Source: Candidatus Latescibacterota bacterium (GTDB lineage Bacteria; Latescibacterota; UBA2968). Taken from it: a stretch of DNA of 64,000 bases. Every line of letters starts with the position of its first letter. Within the stretch, counting starts at the first letter, position 1. A program made the position numbers and the translations under genes. The notes beneath the pieces were generated by a model, which worked only from the letters and a program-made list of their open reading frames with translations, was not told the origin of the DNA and did not search any database. This document shows positions 5,695 through 61,186 of this stretch, in pieces. The DNA is taken from NCBI GenBank assembly GCA_965205975.1, contig OZ242195.1, positions 2,944,001 to 3,008,000 on the forward strand. The letters run 5' to 3'.

Positions 5695-5730
5695 AAAGGG
5701 ACGATACTTACAACGTATCGTCCCTTTTTT
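5695..5730. terminator. Intrinsic terminator between convergent genes, probably bidirectional
   Basis: aaagggacgatac-ttacaac-gtatcgtcccttt stem followed by a T run. Confidence 0.85.
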
Positions 5731-5737
5731 ATCAAAT

Positions 5738-6967
5738 TTAGCAGCCTTCAAATAACGCGATTGCACGAGTATATTCCTGCATCCACTGGGCTACCTCTCG
5801 GGAGGGTGAAAAACGGGTCTGTGCTGACTGTCTTGCTGCTTCGCCGAGTTGAGTACGGAGAACCTCATTTTCAACCAAGAGACTCAAGCACTCTGCCAAA
5901 TTATCGACGTTTTCAGGTGGTACGAGAAGCCCTGTAACCCGATCTTCAATCAATGCGCGTGCGCCATCAATGTCGGATGCAACAATCGGAAGCCCCGCTC
6001 CCATCGCTTCAAGCAGGCTATTTGGCGATCCTTCATAAAGCGACGGAAATGCGTAGATGTCCATTTCTTTTAAAAATGGCATCACATAGCGGTGAGCAAC
6101 GCCACCAGTAAATGTTATATGGGACTCTAAGTTTAGTTCTTTGATGCGATCTTCCCATAATTTTGCTTCCTGCTTATCGTGGATCACCCCGACTGCAAGC
6201 AGATGCGCGTGCGGATGCTTGCAATGTACCTGAGCAAATGCTTCTATAAGATGGTGAAAGCCCTTTACGCGACGTAAAACACTTGCGGTTCCAATCAGAC
6301 ATTTTCCTCGCGATTTCAAATCTGCGAGCATCGCACCAAACATACGCAGGACACCGCTATGATCACCTTTCGCATTGGCGAGACGAAATGAAACAAACTC
6401 GGTAGGATCAAAAGCATTTGGTAGAACTGTTGACATGGAGATATCCGTGATCTGCTTTGCCATGCCGAGATATTCCTCTGTCACAGATGTTACGAGATCG
6501 GCATGCTCCAATATCCAGACCAGTGTAGGAACCATCCTGCAATCGAAGCGAGTTGTCACCACATCTCCCCCTCGAAGGCTGACGACGACGGGGCGGTTTG
6601 CGGCTCGCGCAGCAAGAACAGCAATCAAACCTGGGGGAAGCGCAAAAATTCCATGAAACAGGTCAAAATTGATTTCTGAATGGAGTTTCTCAATATAAAA
6701 CCCAATTTCTCGCAGTTCAGACGGATCGGGATAATTACCGAAAGATCGTTTACTGAGAGATGGGTAAGTTCGATGGACCACAAGACCATCTTCAACCGAT
6801 GACTTCACATCTTCACCTACGGTTATACTTCCCGGTGTGATTACATGGACATCGACATTTTGGGCGGCAAGATTGCGTGCGATCCGACGAGTCGCAGTGG
6901 CGACGCCACCTATGCAGACAGGTGGGTACTGATAAGTGATGATACAAACTCTGATTTTTCGTGACAT
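5738..6967 (-). CDS. Glycosyltransferase family 4 (GT-B fold)
   Basis: N-terminal YPP..GG, RRVKG, FPSLYEGSPNSLLEAM (E-x7-E). Start placed at MSRKIRV. Confidence 0.92.
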   Translation of the reverse strand: MSRKIRVCIITYQYPPVCIGGVATATRRIARNLAAQNVDVHVITPGSITVGEDVKSSVEDGLVVHRTYPSLSKRSFGNYPDPSELREIGFYIEKLHSEINFDLFHGIFALPPGLIAVLAARAANRPVVVSLRGGDVVTTRFDCRMVPTLVWILEHADLVTSVTEEYLGMAKQITDISMSTVLPNAFDPTEFVSFRLANAKGDHSGVLRMFGAMLADLKSRGKCLIGTASVLRRVKGFHHLIEAFAQVHCKHPHAHLLAVGVIHDKQEAKLWEDRIKELNLESHITFTGGVAHRYVMPFLKEMDIYAFPSLYEGSPNSLLEAMGAGLPIVASDIDGARALIEDRVTGLLVPPENVDNLAECLSLLVENEVLRTQLGEAARQSAQTRFSPSREVAQWMQEYTRAIALFEGC

Positions 6968-7048
6968 AGACCTTGCTCCCAATTATTGAAATGAATTGAT
7001 CGAAATGTATTCTGTATCCCGTACCAATCTTGCGATATATCTGAAAAT

Positions 7049-7083
7049 TTGGGTTGGAAGAGTGATCAGATCTCCCAACCCAA
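7049..7083 (-). terminator. Stem-loop downstream of the peptide gene (attenuator or mRNA stabiliser)
   Basis: ttgggttggaaga...tctcccaacccaa inverted repeat; only a weak U tract on the minus strand. Confidence 0.6.
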
Positions 7084-7119
7084 TGAGGCTAAATTCAAAA
7101 GTCGTTGGATGTATCCTCA

Positions 7120-7233
7120 TCAACAAGAACAGTCGTGGGGGTACCAATCCACATCAAGAAGCCATCCCCCCCAATTCCAACCCGTCAGGTCCTCAATGCG
7201 ACCAAGTCGTTTAACACTGGGAGTCTGGTACAT
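7120..7233 (-). CDS. RiPP precursor peptide with lasso-type leader, 37 aa (MYQTPSVKRLGRIEDLTGWNWGGWLLDVDWYPHDCSC); absent from the ORF track
   Basis: Translated by hand. RBS AAAGGAGGTGA at 7239-7249, double TGA stop, leader matches YxxPx(L/V)xxxGxxxxxTx, adjacent to a PqqD/RRE gene. Confidence 0.88.
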   Translation of the reverse strand: MYQTPSVKRLGRIEDLTGWNWGGWLLDVDWYPHDCSC

Positions 7234-7266
7234 ACGTATCACCTCCTTTCTTATAGATTTTCGGGC

Positions 7267-7310
7267 AAAGTACAGAAATAACCACTGACCGGTCAATGCG
7301 TTAGCTAACG
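7267..7310 (-). promoter_or_regulatory. Putative sigma-70 promoter of the precursor overlapped by two palindromes
   Basis: TTGACC (7296-7291), 18 nt, TACTTT (7272-7267); palindromes TGACCGGTCA (7286-7295) and CGTTAGCTAACG (7299-7310). Confidence 0.45.
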
Positions 7311-7378
7311 TTATGATTCCAACTGCTTTGCCCTATTTCTGATCTATCGCAATTGAATTCCACACTTAAAAAAAGAGC

Positions 7379-7698
7379 TCAAGTCTGAACCTGGATAAGG
7401 TGAAAGTCTTGTAGATCGTTCAACAAATTATCCAGATCTCGTTGCAGTATATTAGCGTCCACGTCAAACTCCGTTTGTAACTTGGCGAGGGTATCGCCTG
7501 GTTGGTCCACAGCCAACATTATCTCTATCATCTCTGTAGCTGTGGTATTCAGTTCAAAATATACTCCAGTCACTGTGTCAACCAGAAGGCCCTGTTCCTC
7601 AATACGCGAAAACTCAACGATGTATCGTGCTGCCCTGCAACACCGATGAAATCGCGTCCGATGTCAGGCAATGCTTGAATTTTTGAGATCCTCTCCAT
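7379..7698 (-). pseudogene. PqqD-family RiPP recognition element, apparently frameshifted
   Basis: The frame reading IVEFSRIEEQGLLVDTVTGVYFELNTTATEM...FDVDANILQRDLDNLLNDLQDFHLI is PqqD-like. The ATG with an AAGGAG RBS at 7698 is out of frame with it. Only 7379-7573 is open from a GTG. Confidence 0.75.
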
Positions 7699-7816
7699 AA
7701 TGCTCTCCTTAATCCCATTTCTTTGTGATCAATCACAAGCAGCCCATCCGATGCTTAAATAGCTGTCGAATTTGGGGCTACGCCCTGCTTTCGGTGCGTG
7801 CCTGTATTGCCTATGC

Positions 7817-10228
7817 TTATTCATTTTTTAACTCTTTCACGGGATCTGTTCGCACAATGCGTATGGTGTGATATGAAATTGCCGCAAGTGCCAAGGCGAT
7901 ACAGCCTATCGCTGGTCCCACGAAGTGCATTGGCTCCAGTGGCATTTGAAAAGGAAAGCGTTGCAAATACGCACGCATCGCAAAAAAGGCCAGGATGCAT
8001 CCAATTATACACCCAATGAATGCAAGACGAACTATGGGTAAGGACAGCAAAACAAAGAGGGAGTGTGTGGAAGCTCCCAGAACCTTGCGAACGCCAACTT
8101 CTTTTGTGCGGCGGGACAGCATGTGCAGGGCAAACCCGATCAATCCTACACAGGCGACAATAATCGCCATGAATGAAGCCGTATAGCCGATGGATTGATT
8201 TATCTTTCGGATATTTCGAGTAGAATTTGCCAATTCATCCTTCAAAAGACCGAACTGCGGTGTAACACCTAGCGCGATTTCTGACCAGATTTGCTTTAAT
8301 ATTCCCTTGGTTTCTGTTGCCATATCCGGTTGGAGGCGCACCAGAATAGCCCGAATCTTAGTTTCGGGGTCTTTGTGAATGACCAGGGGACCCATGGGGG
8401 GCAAAATATTTTGAAAATAAAAGTCAGAGATGACACCTACAACCTGGGGGTGCTCAACCTGTCCTACTTGAAATGGAAATGTCTGACCAAGTGCGTGCGT
8501 CCATTCAAATCGCTTTGCGAGGTGTTCGTTGACCAAAACCTCGTTGGTCGGTCCGTTTGGATCCAAATTCTTGCCAGCAACTAAATCCACACCGAGTGTC
8601 TTTAGAAAATCGCCGCGCACTTTATAATGCCAAACAATCACTTCTGAATCGGTCAGTTTTTGCATGCCTGGCGACGATAATACCGGAATACTATTCACAG
8701 CAACCAATCCGACAACACCTGGGAGTTGCTCTGCTTTTTGGCGAAATCGCTCGTAATAAACTTCTGCCTCATCCCCCAAGACTTTGGGTTGTATAACCAT
8801 CAAATGGCGCATATCGAATCCCCTATCCATATAAGTAAAGTGATCAATCCTCTGCACCATAATCGTGGAGGATATCATCAGAAATACAGCCACAGCAAAC
8901 TGAACAACCAGCAGAAATCGGCTCAGGAGTGCTCTTTGTCCCGGAGATGTTTCACCTTTGAGCGCATCTACGGGCTGAAGCCGCGACAACAGCCACGATG
9001 GGTAGAACCCAGCTAAAATTGCCAATAGCACAGGCAATACAAGAATGAACAGGAACACCGTCATATTCCATTGAAGCTGAGGCTTATAGTGAGGAAAGGG
9101 AAAGAGAGATGCAAAATGGGGAAGCAATAGTTCACTCGCGCTCAGCGCGGCCCCCATTGCGATAAAACAAAGAATCATCGACTCGAGAATCGTCTGTCCA
9201 ACAATATGGCGGCGAGTTGCACCCAAGGTCTTGCGAATGCCGACTTCCGTGCCGCGCGCCATGAGTCGACCAATGGTCACGATGCCAAAATTGACGGCTC
9301 CTACCATGAGCACCAGAATCCCCATGAAAGAAAGCAAGATTAGAAACTGCTGCGGTATGTTCATCACTTGAAGTCCCGACATCTCAAATTCAGATAACGC
9401 GGATAGGGGTTGAAGATGGATATGGATGGGAGACTCTTCCTTTCTCCATTGTCCTTCGGCGCGATAGTTGTCAATCTGTTTAGCAAAATAAGCATCTGAA
9501 AAGTAGGGCAATCGGCGCTTTATATGATCGGATGTAACATTTTCTTTTAGATATAAAAAAAGCATGCTATCAAATTCACTGAACTGATCAGAAGATGCAC
9601 GCTGAGTCATGTGCTGATACGGAATCAGCATATCAAATTGCAAACTTGAATAATCCGAAAACGTTTCGACCACACCGCTTATGGCAAAATGTTCCCGCGT
9701 ATTGTTTTGTACCAAAGTCATTGAAGTTCCAACCACGTCAGCTATCGCCCCATCACCCGCCAGTTTCTCAGCCAGTGTTCGAGAAATCAGAATATTTTGC
9801 GGATTTGATAGGGCCTCGCTATTCCCATAAAGCACGGAAAATGAAAACAATGATAAGAACGAGGGATCGACATACGCGGCATAATCCATCCGAAAATGTT
9901 CGTCTTCATAGAGATAAGTAAGACGTCTTGAACGATAACGACAGACCGTTCCCAATTCGCGCAACTCATCGGAGAGAAATGGCCCAGCATCGGAGCGAAA
10001 AGATGCGTTTCGCTGCTCCCATACGGTCTGACCGAGCGCATTAGTGCGATAGATCCAGAAAATTCGATCTGCGTTGTCGTGAAAATCATCCCGCGTGCGA
10101 TAGCGATCTTCCACAAGTACAAACACCATCAATGCACACGTAATGCCCAACACTAAACTCAATACACTCATCACACTGGCAATCCGGTCACGTTTGAGTC
10201 GTCGCCAAGCGATTTTGAGACTTTTCAT
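7817..10228 (-). CDS. ABC transporter permease, duplicated MacB_PCD/FtsX type
   Basis: LKIAWRRL, RGTEVGIRKTLGA, RRTKEVGVRKVLGA, C-terminal DPVKELKNE. Confidence 0.92.
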   Translation of the reverse strand: MKSLKIAWRRLKRDRIASVMSVLSLVLGITCALMVFVLVEDRYRTRDDFHDNADRIFWIYRTNALGQTVWEQRNASFRSDAGPFLSDELRELGTVCRYRSRRLTYLYEDEHFRMDYAAYVDPSFLSLFSFSVLYGNSEALSNPQNILISRTLAEKLAGDGAIADVVGTSMTLVQNNTREHFAISGVVETFSDYSSLQFDMLIPYQHMTQRASSDQFSEFDSMLFLYLKENVTSDHIKRRLPYFSDAYFAKQIDNYRAEGQWRKEESPIHIHLQPLSALSEFEMSGLQVMNIPQQFLILLSFMGILVLMVGAVNFGIVTIGRLMARGTEVGIRKTLGATRRHIVGQTILESMILCFIAMGAALSASELLLPHFASLFPFPHYKPQLQWNMTVFLFILVLPVLLAILAGFYPSWLLSRLQPVDALKGETSPGQRALLSRFLLVVQFAVAVFLMISSTIMVQRIDHFTYMDRGFDMRHLMVIQPKVLGDEAEVYYERFRQKAEQLPGVVGLVAVNSIPVLSSPGMQKLTDSEVIVWHYKVRGDFLKTLGVDLVAGKNLDPNGPTNEVLVNEHLAKRFEWTHALGQTFPFQVGQVEHPQVVGVISDFYFQNILPPMGPLVIHKDPETKIRAILVRLQPDMATETKGILKQIWSEIALGVTPQFGLLKDELANSTRNIRKINQSIGYTASFMAIIVACVGLIGFALHMLSRRTKEVGVRKVLGASTHSLFVLLSLPIVRLAFIGCIIGCILAFFAMRAYLQRFPFQMPLEPMHFVGPAIGCIALALAAISYHTIRIVRTDPVKELKNE

Positions 10229-59003: not shown

Positions 59004-59909
59004 CTAATTAAAACCCGGATATATGCCGCCTTTTCTGGGACTGTAAGGCAAAAATCGGGGATCATAATAAACCAAAGGCATTTTATTGTGAACATCGGTC
59101 TTAATCACTGCTGTTTTACCAGAATCTCCAGTTGTATTGCTTATAGCGAAATCATCCTCTCCAATATAACCTACTTTGATTTCCCACAGCCAGGCTGTGT
59201 TTCCTCTATTTTCTTTTCCTCTAATAAAATTACCCTCACGATCTCCCAAGACATATCTAAAGGTTATGTACACACCGGCCTTAGGCAAATGTCCCTTGGG
59301 CTTGTTACTTTCCAAAGCCATTTTCAATTCTACATCTACGGCGGGTGCTTTGAGTGGCAATAAATCAGGGTACGCATGAGGTCGATTACGCCTGTATAGG
59401 CCCTCTGATGATTTTGCTATACCACTTCCAAGCAAATTTCCCAACATAGATGAAAAATTTGCGAGTTCGACTAATTCTGTGACCACAGGAGATTGAGAGG
59501 ATATTAATTTTCGGTCAATAGTATCTAATACGCCATAAGCATACTCAACTGCATCAAGTAACACAATGCCCTCAATACCCATTAATTCTAACAGGGTTTG
59601 TTCATTTCTAATATTTAATCTATTAGGCTTTCGCGGCTTTAGAAATTCAGAATATTTAGAATTTTCCTCTAATGAAATCAACTCAGCCATTTGCACCAAA
59701 TCCGATAGTGAAAATCCCAGAGCATGGGCAATTTGATTAGCCACTTGAATGGTGGGTACACGCTCGCGTCGTTCTAATAGCCCCACCATTGTTCTATGGA
59801 TACCTGCTTGTTCGGCTAATTGTTCAAGTGTCAACTGCTGTTCTATGCGAACAGCTTTTATTATAGCAAGAAAATTTTGGATAACTGAATCCAATTGATT
59901 TTGCTCCAT
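59004..59909 (-). CDS. XRE/C-protein-like HTH fused to a putative PD-(D/E)xK restriction endonuclease
   Basis: N-terminal LTLEQLAEQAGIHRTMVGLLERRER.PT; C-terminal YPDLL...VELK; divergent from a C5 methyltransferase; AT-rich. Confidence 0.75.
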   Translation of the reverse strand: MEQNQLDSVIQNFLAIIKAVRIEQQLTLEQLAEQAGIHRTMVGLLERRERVPTIQVANQIAHALGFSLSDLVQMAELISLEENSKYSEFLKPRKPNRLNIRNEQTLLELMGIEGIVLLDAVEYAYGVLDTIDRKLISSQSPVVTELVELANFSSMLGNLLGSGIAKSSEGLYRRNRPHAYPDLLPLKAPAVDVELKMALESNKPKGHLPKAGVYITFRYVLGDREGNFIRGKENRGNTAWLWEIKVGYIGEDDFAISNTTGDSGKTAVIKTDVHNKMPLVYYDPRFLPYSPRKGGIYPGFN

Positions 59910-59965
59910 TCAACAACCCCTTAGATGATGTATAAAAAGTATCAGGATGTGAGCAATAAAAAACC

Positions 59966-59997
59966 TTGACAGCTTTTAAAAAAGAGACTATAGTCTC
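59966..59997 (+). promoter_or_regulatory. Sigma-70 promoter of the methyltransferase with a palindrome over the -10 box
   Basis: TTGACA (59966-59971), 17 nt, TATAGT (59989-59994); perfect palindrome GAGACTATAGTCTC (59984-59997). Confidence 0.8.
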
Positions 59998-60031
59998 CAC
60001 CGAGTACTAACCTTTCTCAGGGGATCTAATT

Positions 60032-61186
60032 ATGAAGCAAGCCAAAATTTTCGATCTTTTTTGCGGCACAGGTGGTTTTTCAAAAGGTTTTGAAAAGGTT
60101 GCCGATATTCAATATCAAACTGTTTTGGGTGTAGATTTATTACCTATTGCTGTTGAAACTTTTTGTTTTAACCACCAGGAAGCCTTTGGGATATGCAAAG
60201 ATATACGAACCCTGAGAAAAACGGCAGTTTCTGACATGCTAAAAATTAAAAGGGGAGAATTGGACTTAATTATTGGTGGTCCTCCTTGTCAAGGATTCTC
60301 TTCTATAAGACCTTTTCGCTCGTGTCAAGAGGACGATCCAAGAAATTCACTATTTGAGGAATATGCTTCATTTGTAAACTTTTTTCGGCCTAAAGCATTT
60401 GTGTTAGAAAATGTTATCGGTTTGGCAACGCATAAAAAGGGTTCTACAATAGAAATGATGGAGGAATGTTTCTATAAAATTGGATATGAATCTGACTGGA
60501 AAATTCTCAATACTGCTCATTTTGGTATTCCTCAGAAACGAGAACGATTGATATTTATAGGCGTCGTCAAAGGAAATATGCCCAAATTTCCTGTACCAAA
60601 TTACCAATATAAAGGGGCGACTATCGGCCATAAAAAGAAATTCAGAATGCTTTTACCAAAGGAGCCTGATCTTTTTACAAAATCAGAATTGAACCCTGCA
60701 ATAACCGTTATGGACGCAATTGATGATTTGCCTCCCGTTGAATCTGGCGAGAAAGCCACAGTATATGTCAACAAACCAAGAACGGAATATCAGCAGGCAA
60801 GAAGGAATGGAACCAAAATATTAACACTTCATGAAGCGACCAATCATTCGGGAAAAATGCTCGAAATAATACATCACGCGGGCAAAAACATCAATTCTAT
60901 TCCCAAACATCTAATAAGTAGTGGGTTTAGTTCTTGTTATTCGAGATTGGATGCAAATGAGCCTGCGGTAACGATAACGGTCAATTTTGTTCATCCTGCA
61001 TCTAATAGATGTATCCATCCCCTACAAAACCGCGCTCTTACACCCAGAGAAGGCGCACGCCTACAATCCTTTGATGATGATTTCATGTTTGCAGGTACTC
61101 GCTCACAAATCGTCAAACAAATAGGAAATGCAGTTCCACCTCTGTTGGGACAGCGCATCGGAGAAGCATTAGCTCCCGTGTTTTAA
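60032..61186 (+). CDS. DNA (cytosine-5)-methyltransferase
   Basis: DLFCGTGG, GGPPCQGFS, ENV, PQKRER, REGARLQSF, QIGNAVPP. Confidence 0.96.
   Translation: MKQAKIFDLFCGTGGFSKGFEKVADIQYQTVLGVDLLPIAVETFCFNHQEAFGICKDIRTLRKTAVSDMLKIKRGELDLIIGGPPCQGFSSIRPFRSCQEDDPRNSLFEEYASFVNFFRPKAFVLENVIGLATHKKGSTIEMMEECFYKIGYESDWKILNTAHFGIPQKRERLIFIGVVKGNMPKFPVPNYQYKGATIGHKKKFRMLLPKEPDLFTKSELNPAITVMDAIDDLPPVESGEKATVYVNKPRTEYQQARRNGTKILTLHEATNHSGKMLEIIHHAGKNINSIPKHLISSGFSSCYSRLDANEPAVTITVNFVHPASNRCIHPLQNRALTPREGARLQSFDDDFMFAGTRSQIVKQIGNAVPPLLGQRIGEALAPVF

What the first reader, a model, noticed from the sequence alone, without database searches (positions are those of the whole stretch)
7120..7250. Unannotated precursor with a Trp-rich core WNWGGWLLDVDWYPHDCSC
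Seen: strong Shine-Dalgarno, double stop and a downstream hairpin. With Thr at -2 the core starts at Trp1, has Asp9 in the usual macrolactam acceptor range (7-9), four Trp residues and a C-terminal Cys-Ser-Cys. Established: Trp1 lasso peptides exist (fusilassin, Trp1-Glu9), class IV lasso peptides carry a tail disulfide, darobactin's core also starts WNW, and some glycocins are glycosylated on Cys or Ser. Inference: the CSC tail is a candidate glycosylation or disulfide site, and WNW could alternatively be a radical SAM crosslinking motif.
Basis: partly seen in the sequence, partly recalled or inferred. Interest (0 to 1): 0.85.

Follow-up and report, generated by a model that had tools for sequence, protein, structure and literature searches.

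The report
Lasso precursor orphaned by a deletion
This small gene encodes a likely lasso-peptide precursor whose processing enzymes were deleted in this genome but survive in sponge-associated relatives, where the same leader carries fast-changing 19-residue cores predicted to be ring-closed, disulfide-linked and possibly sugar-modified.

Summary
The 37-codon gene (7120-7233, minus strand) is real, with the Shine-Dalgarno, double stop and hairpin described. It is a lasso-type precursor: Y(-17)xxP(-14)xV(-12), T(-2), core Trp1..Asp9.

A deletion of about 3.55 kb at 7619/7620 fused the first 26 codons of the cyclase out of frame to the RRE. It removed the cyclase, B2 protease, a sugar-nucleotide epimerase and the RRE start. 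No B2 or lasso cyclase was found elsewhere in this 98%-complete genome. A sister species and sponge metagenome contigs hold the intact genes; one has the same WNWGGWLLDV ring behind an intact RRE.

Four homologous cores share the leader and 19-residue length but vary strongly. Asp9, Gly5, His15 and Ser18 are invariant; Trp1, WNW and CSC are not. Each core has exactly two Cys, in three arrangements, which favours a disulfide. The radical-SAM reading is rejected. GT4 glycosylation of Ser18 is open (about 40%). No product, translation or topology was shown. The scan's earlier notes gave no match on other DNA.

The parts
7120..7233 (-). Lasso-type precursor, 37 aa: 18-aa leader (7180-7233) and 19-aa core (7123-7179)
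   Evidence: NF033521 lasso leader E=0.015, 15.3 bits, below the 19-bit cut-off; homologues
7239..7248 (-). Shine-Dalgarno AAGGAGGTGA
   Evidence: also present in G007
7049..7083 (-). Stem-loop between precursor and GT4 (inferred mRNA stabiliser or attenuator)
   Evidence: retained in G007; not listed as a terminator
7379..7618 (-). RRE/B1 (PqqD family) remnant: codons 10-88 of the intact 88-aa protein, own start and SD lost; first standard start is GTG 7573 (64 aa)
   Evidence: PF05402 40.4 bits, cut-off 23.4; comparison with G007
7619..7620 (.). Deletion junction; about 3.55 kb lost (most of cyclase, B2, epimerase, RRE start)
   Evidence: run X2 spans it in one contig with 0 differences; X5, X6, X7 leave the window here into an intact RRE start
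7570..7698 (-). 42-aa fusion ORF: about 26-28 N-terminal cyclase residues, then out-of-frame RRE DNA; its TGA overlaps GTG 7573
5738..6967 (-). GT4 glycosyltransferase, 409 aa, intact; part of the island
   Evidence: PF00534 and PF13439; 94% identical to G007; missing at the empty site in G009 and G001
5695..5727 (-). Terminator-like hairpin closing the operon; older than the island (also at empty sites)
7817..10228 (-). MacB/FtsX-type duplicated permease upstream; resident gene outside the island, possible exporter (inference)
   Evidence: homologous DNA at the G001 and G009 sites that lack the island

Best explanation
The gene encodes a likely lasso-peptide precursor left behind when a deletion of about 3.55 kb removed the cyclase, protease, epimerase and RRE start from this genome, so this copy would most likely stay unprocessed. 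In intact relatives the island reads cyclase - B2 - epimerase - RRE - precursor - GT4 (shown in G007 across one contig break). Predicted route there: the RRE binds YxxPxV, B2 cuts after Thr-Gly, and the ATP-dependent cyclase joins the residue-1 amine (Trp or Phe) to Asp9, giving a 9-residue ring threaded by the 10-residue tail. The two Cys likely form one disulfide (about 0.6): in the tail for this peptide (C17-C19, class IV-like). His15 is a candidate lower plug (about 0.3). The GT4 possibly adds a uronic acid or hexose made by the epimerase to the invariant Ser18 (about 0.4, the weakest step). The fixed leader with a fast-changing core is likely a strain-level diversification system. Gene content, deletion and core variation are shown; every chemical step is inferred.
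For: Deletion: G007 matches the window on two contigs that diverge exactly at 7620/7618, one continuing into a cyclase, the other coming from B2, epimerase and a full RRE. X2 holds the junction in one contig, while X5, X6 and X7 (three other studies) have the intact RRE start. Own genome (1 contig, 98.3% complete): no PF13471, no NF033537, no B2 homologue better than E=0.07, cyclase query hits only the remnant. Lasso machinery: G007 B2 passes NF033537, 35.5 bits against 33, and reads CLPRS..FHAWVE..VND. Four cyclase homologues of 622-629 aa have PF00733 and SGGIDSS and no N-terminal Cys. Cyclase P0003, GT4 P0034 and precursor P0156 share a longest-contig length of 499,447. Leader spacing matches YxxPxL at -17..-12 and Thr(-2) (PMC10368454 passages). 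Core against G007: 9 of 19 residues changed versus 1 of 18 in the leader (p=0.008) and 23 of 409 in GT4 (p=1e-6). Asp9 is the sole acid at 7-10 in 4 of 4 cores; two Cys in 4 of 4, at 17/19, 17/19, 16/19 and 3/13; 0.8% per random 19-mer. X16 has the window's ring W1-V10 behind an intact RRE joined to the epimerase, plus B2 and cyclase pieces. RRE-precursor model: weak support, score 0.48, best of 3 controls 0.01, contact agreement at least 82%, partner pLDDT at least 53; the mark was reached by 116 of 157 solved and 2 of 215 mismatched pairs, but at 0.60 or under by only 18 of the 157 and by both mismatches; solved RRE-leader complexes exist (recalled), so the pass may reflect likeness.
Against: No product, translation or threading was observed. 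The leader scores below the NF033521 cut-off. The cyclase scores 30.4 bits against a 525-bit cut-off on NF033535, lower than on asparagine synthase TIGR01536, and has no PDB match. Only 4 full cores are known. Invariance of G5, H15 and S18 is not beyond chance (3 of 18, P=0.36). The cores are related, so the two-Cys figure is not four independent draws. The GT4 subfamily occurs in 14 other genomes of 168 searched, of which only G007 and G001 have a B2 gene; its neighbours are mostly sugar enzymes. The GT4 stayed intact here after the pathway was lost. A C17-C19 disulfide across one residue is strained (own knowledge).
Confidence: 0.8

Rival explanations
1. Plain disulfide lasso peptide: GT4 and epimerase are passengers from the genus's mobile glycan cassettes and do not touch the peptide.
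For: GT4 subfamily in 15 of 168 genomes, with 3 paralogues in this genome; 12 of the 14 other carriers have no B2. An 89%-identical epimerase stands alone after the ATP synthase operon here. Ser18 invariance is not significant.
Against: Both sugar genes are co-oriented inside the island, the epimerase between B2 and RRE, and GT4 is missing at the empty sites. X16 keeps the epimerase-RRE-precursor order. Ser18 is kept in 4 of 4 cores.
Confidence: 0.45
2. The orphan precursor still works in this genome, as a linear peptide, a thiol or metal binder, or through enzymes acting in trans.
For: SD, leader, hairpin and GT4 are intact; a 64-aa RRE could be made by coupling at the GTGA overlap; the epimerase has a spare copy.
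Against: No B2 or lasso cyclase found. The ring is unchanged from an intact strain, which fits a recent deletion without time to decay. CSC is not conserved.
Confidence: 0.1
3. Glycocin-like S-glycosylation of a tail cysteine.
For: C-terminal Cys in 3 of 4 cores; a glycosyltransferase follows the gene.
Against: P0156 has no Cys after position 13. Glycocin transferases are GT2 (PMC11912497), this one is GT4. Cys number stays even.
Confidence: 0.06
4. The deletion is an assembly error or a minor variant, and the organism has the full cluster.
For: X2 and its sister runs may be the source of the window; only contigs, not raw reads, could be laid.
Against: An independently assembled X2 contig spans the junction with 0 differences and X2 has no loose end there. 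Three samples of that study hold 99-100% of the words. Of the deleted DNA only the separate epimerase copy matches in the genome.
Confidence: 0.05
5. WNW is a darobactin-type radical-SAM crosslinking motif.
For: The core begins WNW, as daropeptide cores do (PMC9055067); the upstream permease has a sub-cut-off hit to DarB (63.7 bits against 700).
Against: Daropeptide cores read WNWx(K/R)xF; here position 5 is Gly and 7 is Leu. Homologues read FDF, WNG and WQC. No radical SAM gene lies in the window's island or in the assembled parts of G007's.
Confidence: 0.02

Closest known systems
Fusilassin (fuscanodin) and cellulassin
   Same: Trp1 and a 9-residue ring (Trp1-Glu9; bioRxiv 2020.11.25.399105 passages); split RRE/B2/C machinery.
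   Different: Acceptor is Asp9; cores carry two Cys; island has GT4 and epimerase; position 1 can be Phe. Phe1 has a precedent (Phe1-Glu8, PMC13632552 passages).
Class IV lasso peptides (LP2006, pandonodin, felipeptins)
   Same: One predicted disulfide wholly in the tail and no dedicated oxidase in the island (PMC9266682 passages).
   Different: Very short spacing (CxC, CxxC); one allele (C3/C13) would instead link ring and loop, a form reported for engineered stlassin variants (PMC8480316 passages).
Davasins (IgtG) and pseudomycoidin (PsmK/PsmN)
   Same: Lasso cluster with a sugar-adding gene; Ser as candidate acceptor.
   Different: IgtG is a membrane GT2 fusion and PsmN a nucleotidyltransferase acting after phosphorylation (PMC11912497 parts 1-2 of 4); here a GT4 plus a sugar-nucleotide epimerase, no kinase; activity untested.
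Sponge-microbiome lasso gene cluster families (PMC9426513)
   Same: Predicted lasso clusters with glycosyl-, sulfo- and nucleotidyl-transferases in sponge symbionts are mentioned (passages).
   Different: The passages seen give no precursor family, core variation or chemistry; I did not read the supplements, which could include this cluster.
Prochloron patE hypervariable cassettes (cyanobactins)
   Same: Symbiont strains vary a small core in a conserved genetic background (PMC4663559 passages).
   Different: Different RiPP class; here one core per precursor and only 4 alleles seen.

Membership tests
Lasso peptide (split B1/B2/C) | Leader YxxPxL at -17..-12 and Thr at -2 | tested here: met
   Y-17, P-14, V-12 (Val for Leu), T-2 in 4 of 4 homologues; NF033521 scores 13.9-15.8 bits, under the 19-bit cut-off
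Lasso peptide (split B1/B2/C) | Asp or Glu at core position 7-9 | tested here: met
   Asp9 in 4 of 4 full cores and in the X16 and X11 partial reads
Lasso peptide (split B1/B2/C) | B2 cysteine protease in the cluster (intact relatives) | tested here: met
   G007 166-aa ORF, NF033537 35.5 bits against 33; PF13471 over cut-off
Lasso peptide (split B1/B2/C) | Asparagine-synthetase-like macrolactam cyclase (intact relatives) | tested here: inconclusive
   PF00733, SGGIDSS, no N-terminal Cys, next to B2; far below NF033535 and NF033561 cut-offs
Lasso peptide (split B1/B2/C) | Complete RRE, B2 and cyclase in the window's own genome | tested here: not met
   RRE lacks its start
Lasso peptide (split B1/B2/C) | Leader binds the RRE | tested here: inconclusive
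   weak model support only, 0.48 against best control 0.01, using the G007 RRE
Lasso peptide (split B1/B2/C) | Macrolactam and threaded topology in a product | not testable with these tools
   needs MS/MS, protease resistance and NMR
Class IV lasso peptide | One disulfide wholly within the threaded tail | tested here: inconclusive
   two tail Cys in 3 of 4 cores; 3/13 in the fourth; oxidation state unknown
Daropeptide (darobactin) | Core WNWx(K/R)xF and a DarE radical SAM enzyme in the cluster | tested here: not met
   no rSAM gene in the island
Glycocin | GT2 S-glycosyltransferase and two nested disulfides | tested here: not met
   GT4 family; only two Cys; definitions
Davasin-type glycosylated lasso | IgtG-like deacetylase/GT2 membrane protein | tested here: not met
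   the 409-aa protein matches GT4 models, not GT2; IgtG description

The most novel reading that the evidence does not exclude
A sponge-symbiont lasso family in which one tolerant cyclase closes hypervariable Trp1/Phe1-Asp9 cores, alleles switch the disulfide between tail-tail and a natural ring-loop form (C3-C13), and a GT4 with its own epimerase puts a uronic acid on the invariant penultimate Ser as a stopper: a GT4-glycosylated lasso peptide, not found in the papers searched.
Probability: 0.25. Interest if true: 0.75.

Novelty: new variant of a known kind. Interest (0 to 1): 0.45.

Why it matters
The window's copy is a decayed pathway and would mislead anyone who tried to express it. The family behind it is a compact six-gene cluster with natural core variants 26-53% identical under one leader. 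That makes it a ready test of cyclase tolerance, of whether disulfide class is set by core sequence alone, and of whether a GT4 enzyme can glycosylate a lasso peptide. The two glycosylation routes described in PMC11912497 (March 2025) use a GT2 and a nucleotidyltransferase. It also gives exact masses to seek in sponge extracts.

Tried and rejected
1. First idea that the RRE was broken by a 41-nt insertion between short direct repeats: rejected when G007 showed those bases are the cyclase 5' end.
3. The cluster-member look-up could not be made, so names and sources of P0002-P0004, P0155 and P0156 stayed unknown and their gene neighbourhoods were not seen directly.
4. Precursor profile over 168 phylum genomes: clear hits only in G000 and G007; six hits at E 0.003-0.04 were not examined. 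Two of the four representative hits (P0154, P0157) are long repeat proteins and were dropped.
5. Other lasso-like clusters in G001 and G041 were read; none has this precursor.
6. PDB sequence searches for the RRE and cyclase profile gave nothing.
7. RNA-library contigs X11 and X16 hold the precursor region at depth 16 and 60, with most other cluster pieces lower, but contig depth cannot show transcription and no silent control was laid: not used as evidence of expression. X9 covered only the epimerase.
8. Invariance of G5, H15, S18 tested and not significant.
9. Literature: searches for lasso + glycosyltransferase + glycosylated, lasso + GT4 (listing only), lasso + sponge + Latescibacter, class V lasso + disulfide (listing only; that name is used for a Lys-to-C-terminus macrocycle) and hypervariable symbiont RiPPs showed no description of this family. 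PMC12426817 has no occurrence of 'lasso'. Subscription papers and all supplements were not seen.

Full report
Observation. A 13-bp stem follows at 7049-7083 (z -2.85) but is not listed as a terminator. A strict SD + lasso-leader + acid-at-7-9 pattern returns only this ORF in the 5.56-Mb genome and nothing in 3 shuffles. The leader positions are Y-17, P-14, V-12, T-2, G-1, matching YxxPxL at -17..-12 and Thr at -2 as given in PMC10368454 (passages). The curated leader model scores it below cut-off.

Surroundings. On the same strand lie a MacB/FtsX permease (7817-10228), a PqqD-family frame without a proper start (7379-7663), the precursor, and a GT4 glycosyltransferase. The genome is one contig, 98.3% complete. 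It has no B2 protease (best B2 match E=0.07). Its best Asn_synthase hit lies 1.6 Mb away and is not matched by the cyclase query. Its two other PqqD hits are in unrelated loci.

The deletion. Among 40 relatives searched with the 2.4-kb region, 21 gave matches, but only G007 matched the island itself; the rest matched flanks or a GT4 motif. G007 matches on two contigs that part from the window at 7620 and 7618. One continues into a cyclase of at least 493 aa. The other carries the cyclase C-terminus, a 166-aa B2, a 370-aa epimerase, an 88-aa RRE, the precursor and GT4. The window therefore lost about 3.55 kb (the size uses the 622-aa homologue P0001 because G007's cyclase is split). What remains is a 42-aa ORF of cyclase N-terminus running into RRE DNA out of frame and RRE codons 10-88. 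The fusion reads HDTSL like homologue P0002, which suggests a junction inside a short GTTGA shared by both parents (inference). Run X2 holds the joined form in one contig with no differences, though it may be the window's source; X5, X6 and X7 from three other studies have the intact RRE start, and X5 also continues into the cyclase. G009 and G001 lack everything from about 5733 to 7800, so GT4, precursor, RRE, epimerase, B2 and cyclase form one island.

Machinery. G007's B2 passes NF033537 (35.5 against 33 bits). The cyclase has four close homologue clusters (80-98%, 622-629 aa) among 33 hits; the other 29 are distant asparagine synthetases. They share SGGIDSS and lack the N-terminal Cys of glutamine-dependent asparagine synthetases (the meaning of that Cys is own knowledge). 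They score far below lasso cyclase cut-offs, so the assignment rests on context. The epimerase's best PDB match is 5U4Q (E 2e-124), then WbgU/WbpP-type 4-epimerases; reading it as a UDP-glucuronate 4-epimerase type is my recall. A model of G007 RRE with the precursor gave weak support only (0.48 against 0.01).

Homologous cores. Four full precursors were found: window WNWGGWLLDVDWYPHDCSC, G007 FDFGGWAIDVAFMPHSCSC, P0155 WNGGGETLDWLFNEHCPSC, P0156 WQCMGDRIDVFLCRHEISG. Leaders differ by at most one residue. All cores are 19 aa and 5-10 of 19 identical in pairs. Against G007 the core changed at 9 of 19 residues, the leader at 1 of 18, GT4 at 23 of 409 and the shared RRE part at 18 of 79 (p = 0.008, 1e-6 and 0.045). 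X5, X6 and X7 also show the core as 'same length, diverged'. Invariant: G5, D9, H15, S18. Leaving D9 aside, three invariants of 18 is what chance gives (P=0.36). Each core has exactly two Cys although positions move; a random 19-mer would have two in 0.8% of cases, but the cores are related. X16 carries the window's first ten residues behind an intact RRE joined to the epimerase, with B2 and cyclase pieces in the same run; residues 11-19 were not visible. X11 carries the P0156 type and X8 the G007 type. Runs X5, X8, X11 and X16 are on record as sponge metagenomes.

Mechanism. Shown: gene content, order, deletion, core variation. Inferred from known lasso biosynthesis: RRE binding, cleavage after Thr-Gly, residue 1 to Asp9 macrolactam. 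Trp1 nine-membered rings are known (fusilassin, cellulassin; bioRxiv 2020.11.25.399105 passages) and Phe1 has a precedent (PMC13632552 passages). In capistruin, also 19 residues, the upper plug is listed at position 14 (PMC12214591 Table 1). By analogy His15 would sit just below the ring, C16/17-C19 in the tail (class IV-like, PMC9266682 passages) and C13 in the loop. The P0156 allele would then have a lone ring-loop disulfide, described for engineered stlassin variants (PMC8480316 passages); if its plug lies before 13 it is ordinary class III. Lasso disulfides appear to form without a dedicated enzyme.

The GT4 question. For a role: it and the epimerase are inside the island, and Ser18 is kept in 4 of 4 cores. 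Against: the subfamily is in 15 of 168 phylum genomes, and only 2 of the 14 other carriers have a B2 gene. In 14 fetched loci, 66 of 116 neighbouring ORFs were scanned; they were mostly glycosyltransferases, sugar-nucleotide enzymes, sulfotransferases and thioredoxin-like proteins, with radical SAM genes in 2 loci and no lasso enzyme. I put peptide glycosylation at about 0.4. The lasso glycosylation routes in PMC11912497 (parts 1-2 of 4 read) use GT2 or a nucleotidyltransferase; sponge lasso clusters with glycosyltransferases have been noted in general terms (PMC9426513 passages).

Rejected readings. WNW is in 1 of 4 full cores, lacks the downstream K/R and F of daropeptides (PMC9055067 passages), and has no radical SAM partner. 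Cys glycosylation conflicts with P0156 and with the enzyme family.

Verdict. A real lasso-type precursor from a small, undescribed (in the searches listed) symbiont family, stranded in a deleted cluster in this genome. New variant of a known kind on predicted features only; interest 0.45. Supplements of the cited papers were not read and could list this cluster.

Noticed in passing
G000:C1:4332424-4333449: Lone copy of the epimerase, 89% identical to the one deleted from the island, directly after the ATP synthase operon.
   Followed up: partly
P0155 core: Shares N2, G5, D9, W10, F12 and N13 with RES-701-1 as printed in PMC12214591 Table 1 (by-eye comparison, no statistic); the window core shares N2, W3, G5, D9.
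   Followed up: no
L038-L039 (G001:C1:3250000-3285000): Larger lasso-like cluster with B2, cyclase, ABC transporter and several transferase-like genes, interrupted by UvrA-like sequence; no precursor found by my patterns.
   Followed up: partly
L042 (G041:C1 about 6996230-6998350): Cyclase and B2 related to the G001 cluster, with a short precursor-like ORF (YSKPKLVSYG leader) among many insertion sequences.
   Followed up: no
G000:C1:2157000-2172000: GT4 paralogue beside a subtilase-like gene, several beta-propeller-like genes and a 75-aa Cys/Trp-rich ORF at 2171537-2171764; labels by eye.
   Followed up: no
G000:C1:3077000-3091000: PqqD-domain radical-SAM-like gene with sugar-nucleotide and subtilase-like genes behind a kinase-like regulator.
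   Followed up: no
L083, L084, L086, L090: Recurrent cassette: GT4 preceded by a roughly 435-aa protein with a weak M50 peptidase hit and a 334-aa protein without Pfam match; possibly another peptide-modifying system.
   Followed up: no
window 59004-61186: DNA cytosine methylase-like gene beside an HTH-fused nuclease-like gene, a likely restriction-modification pair; by eye.
   Followed up: no
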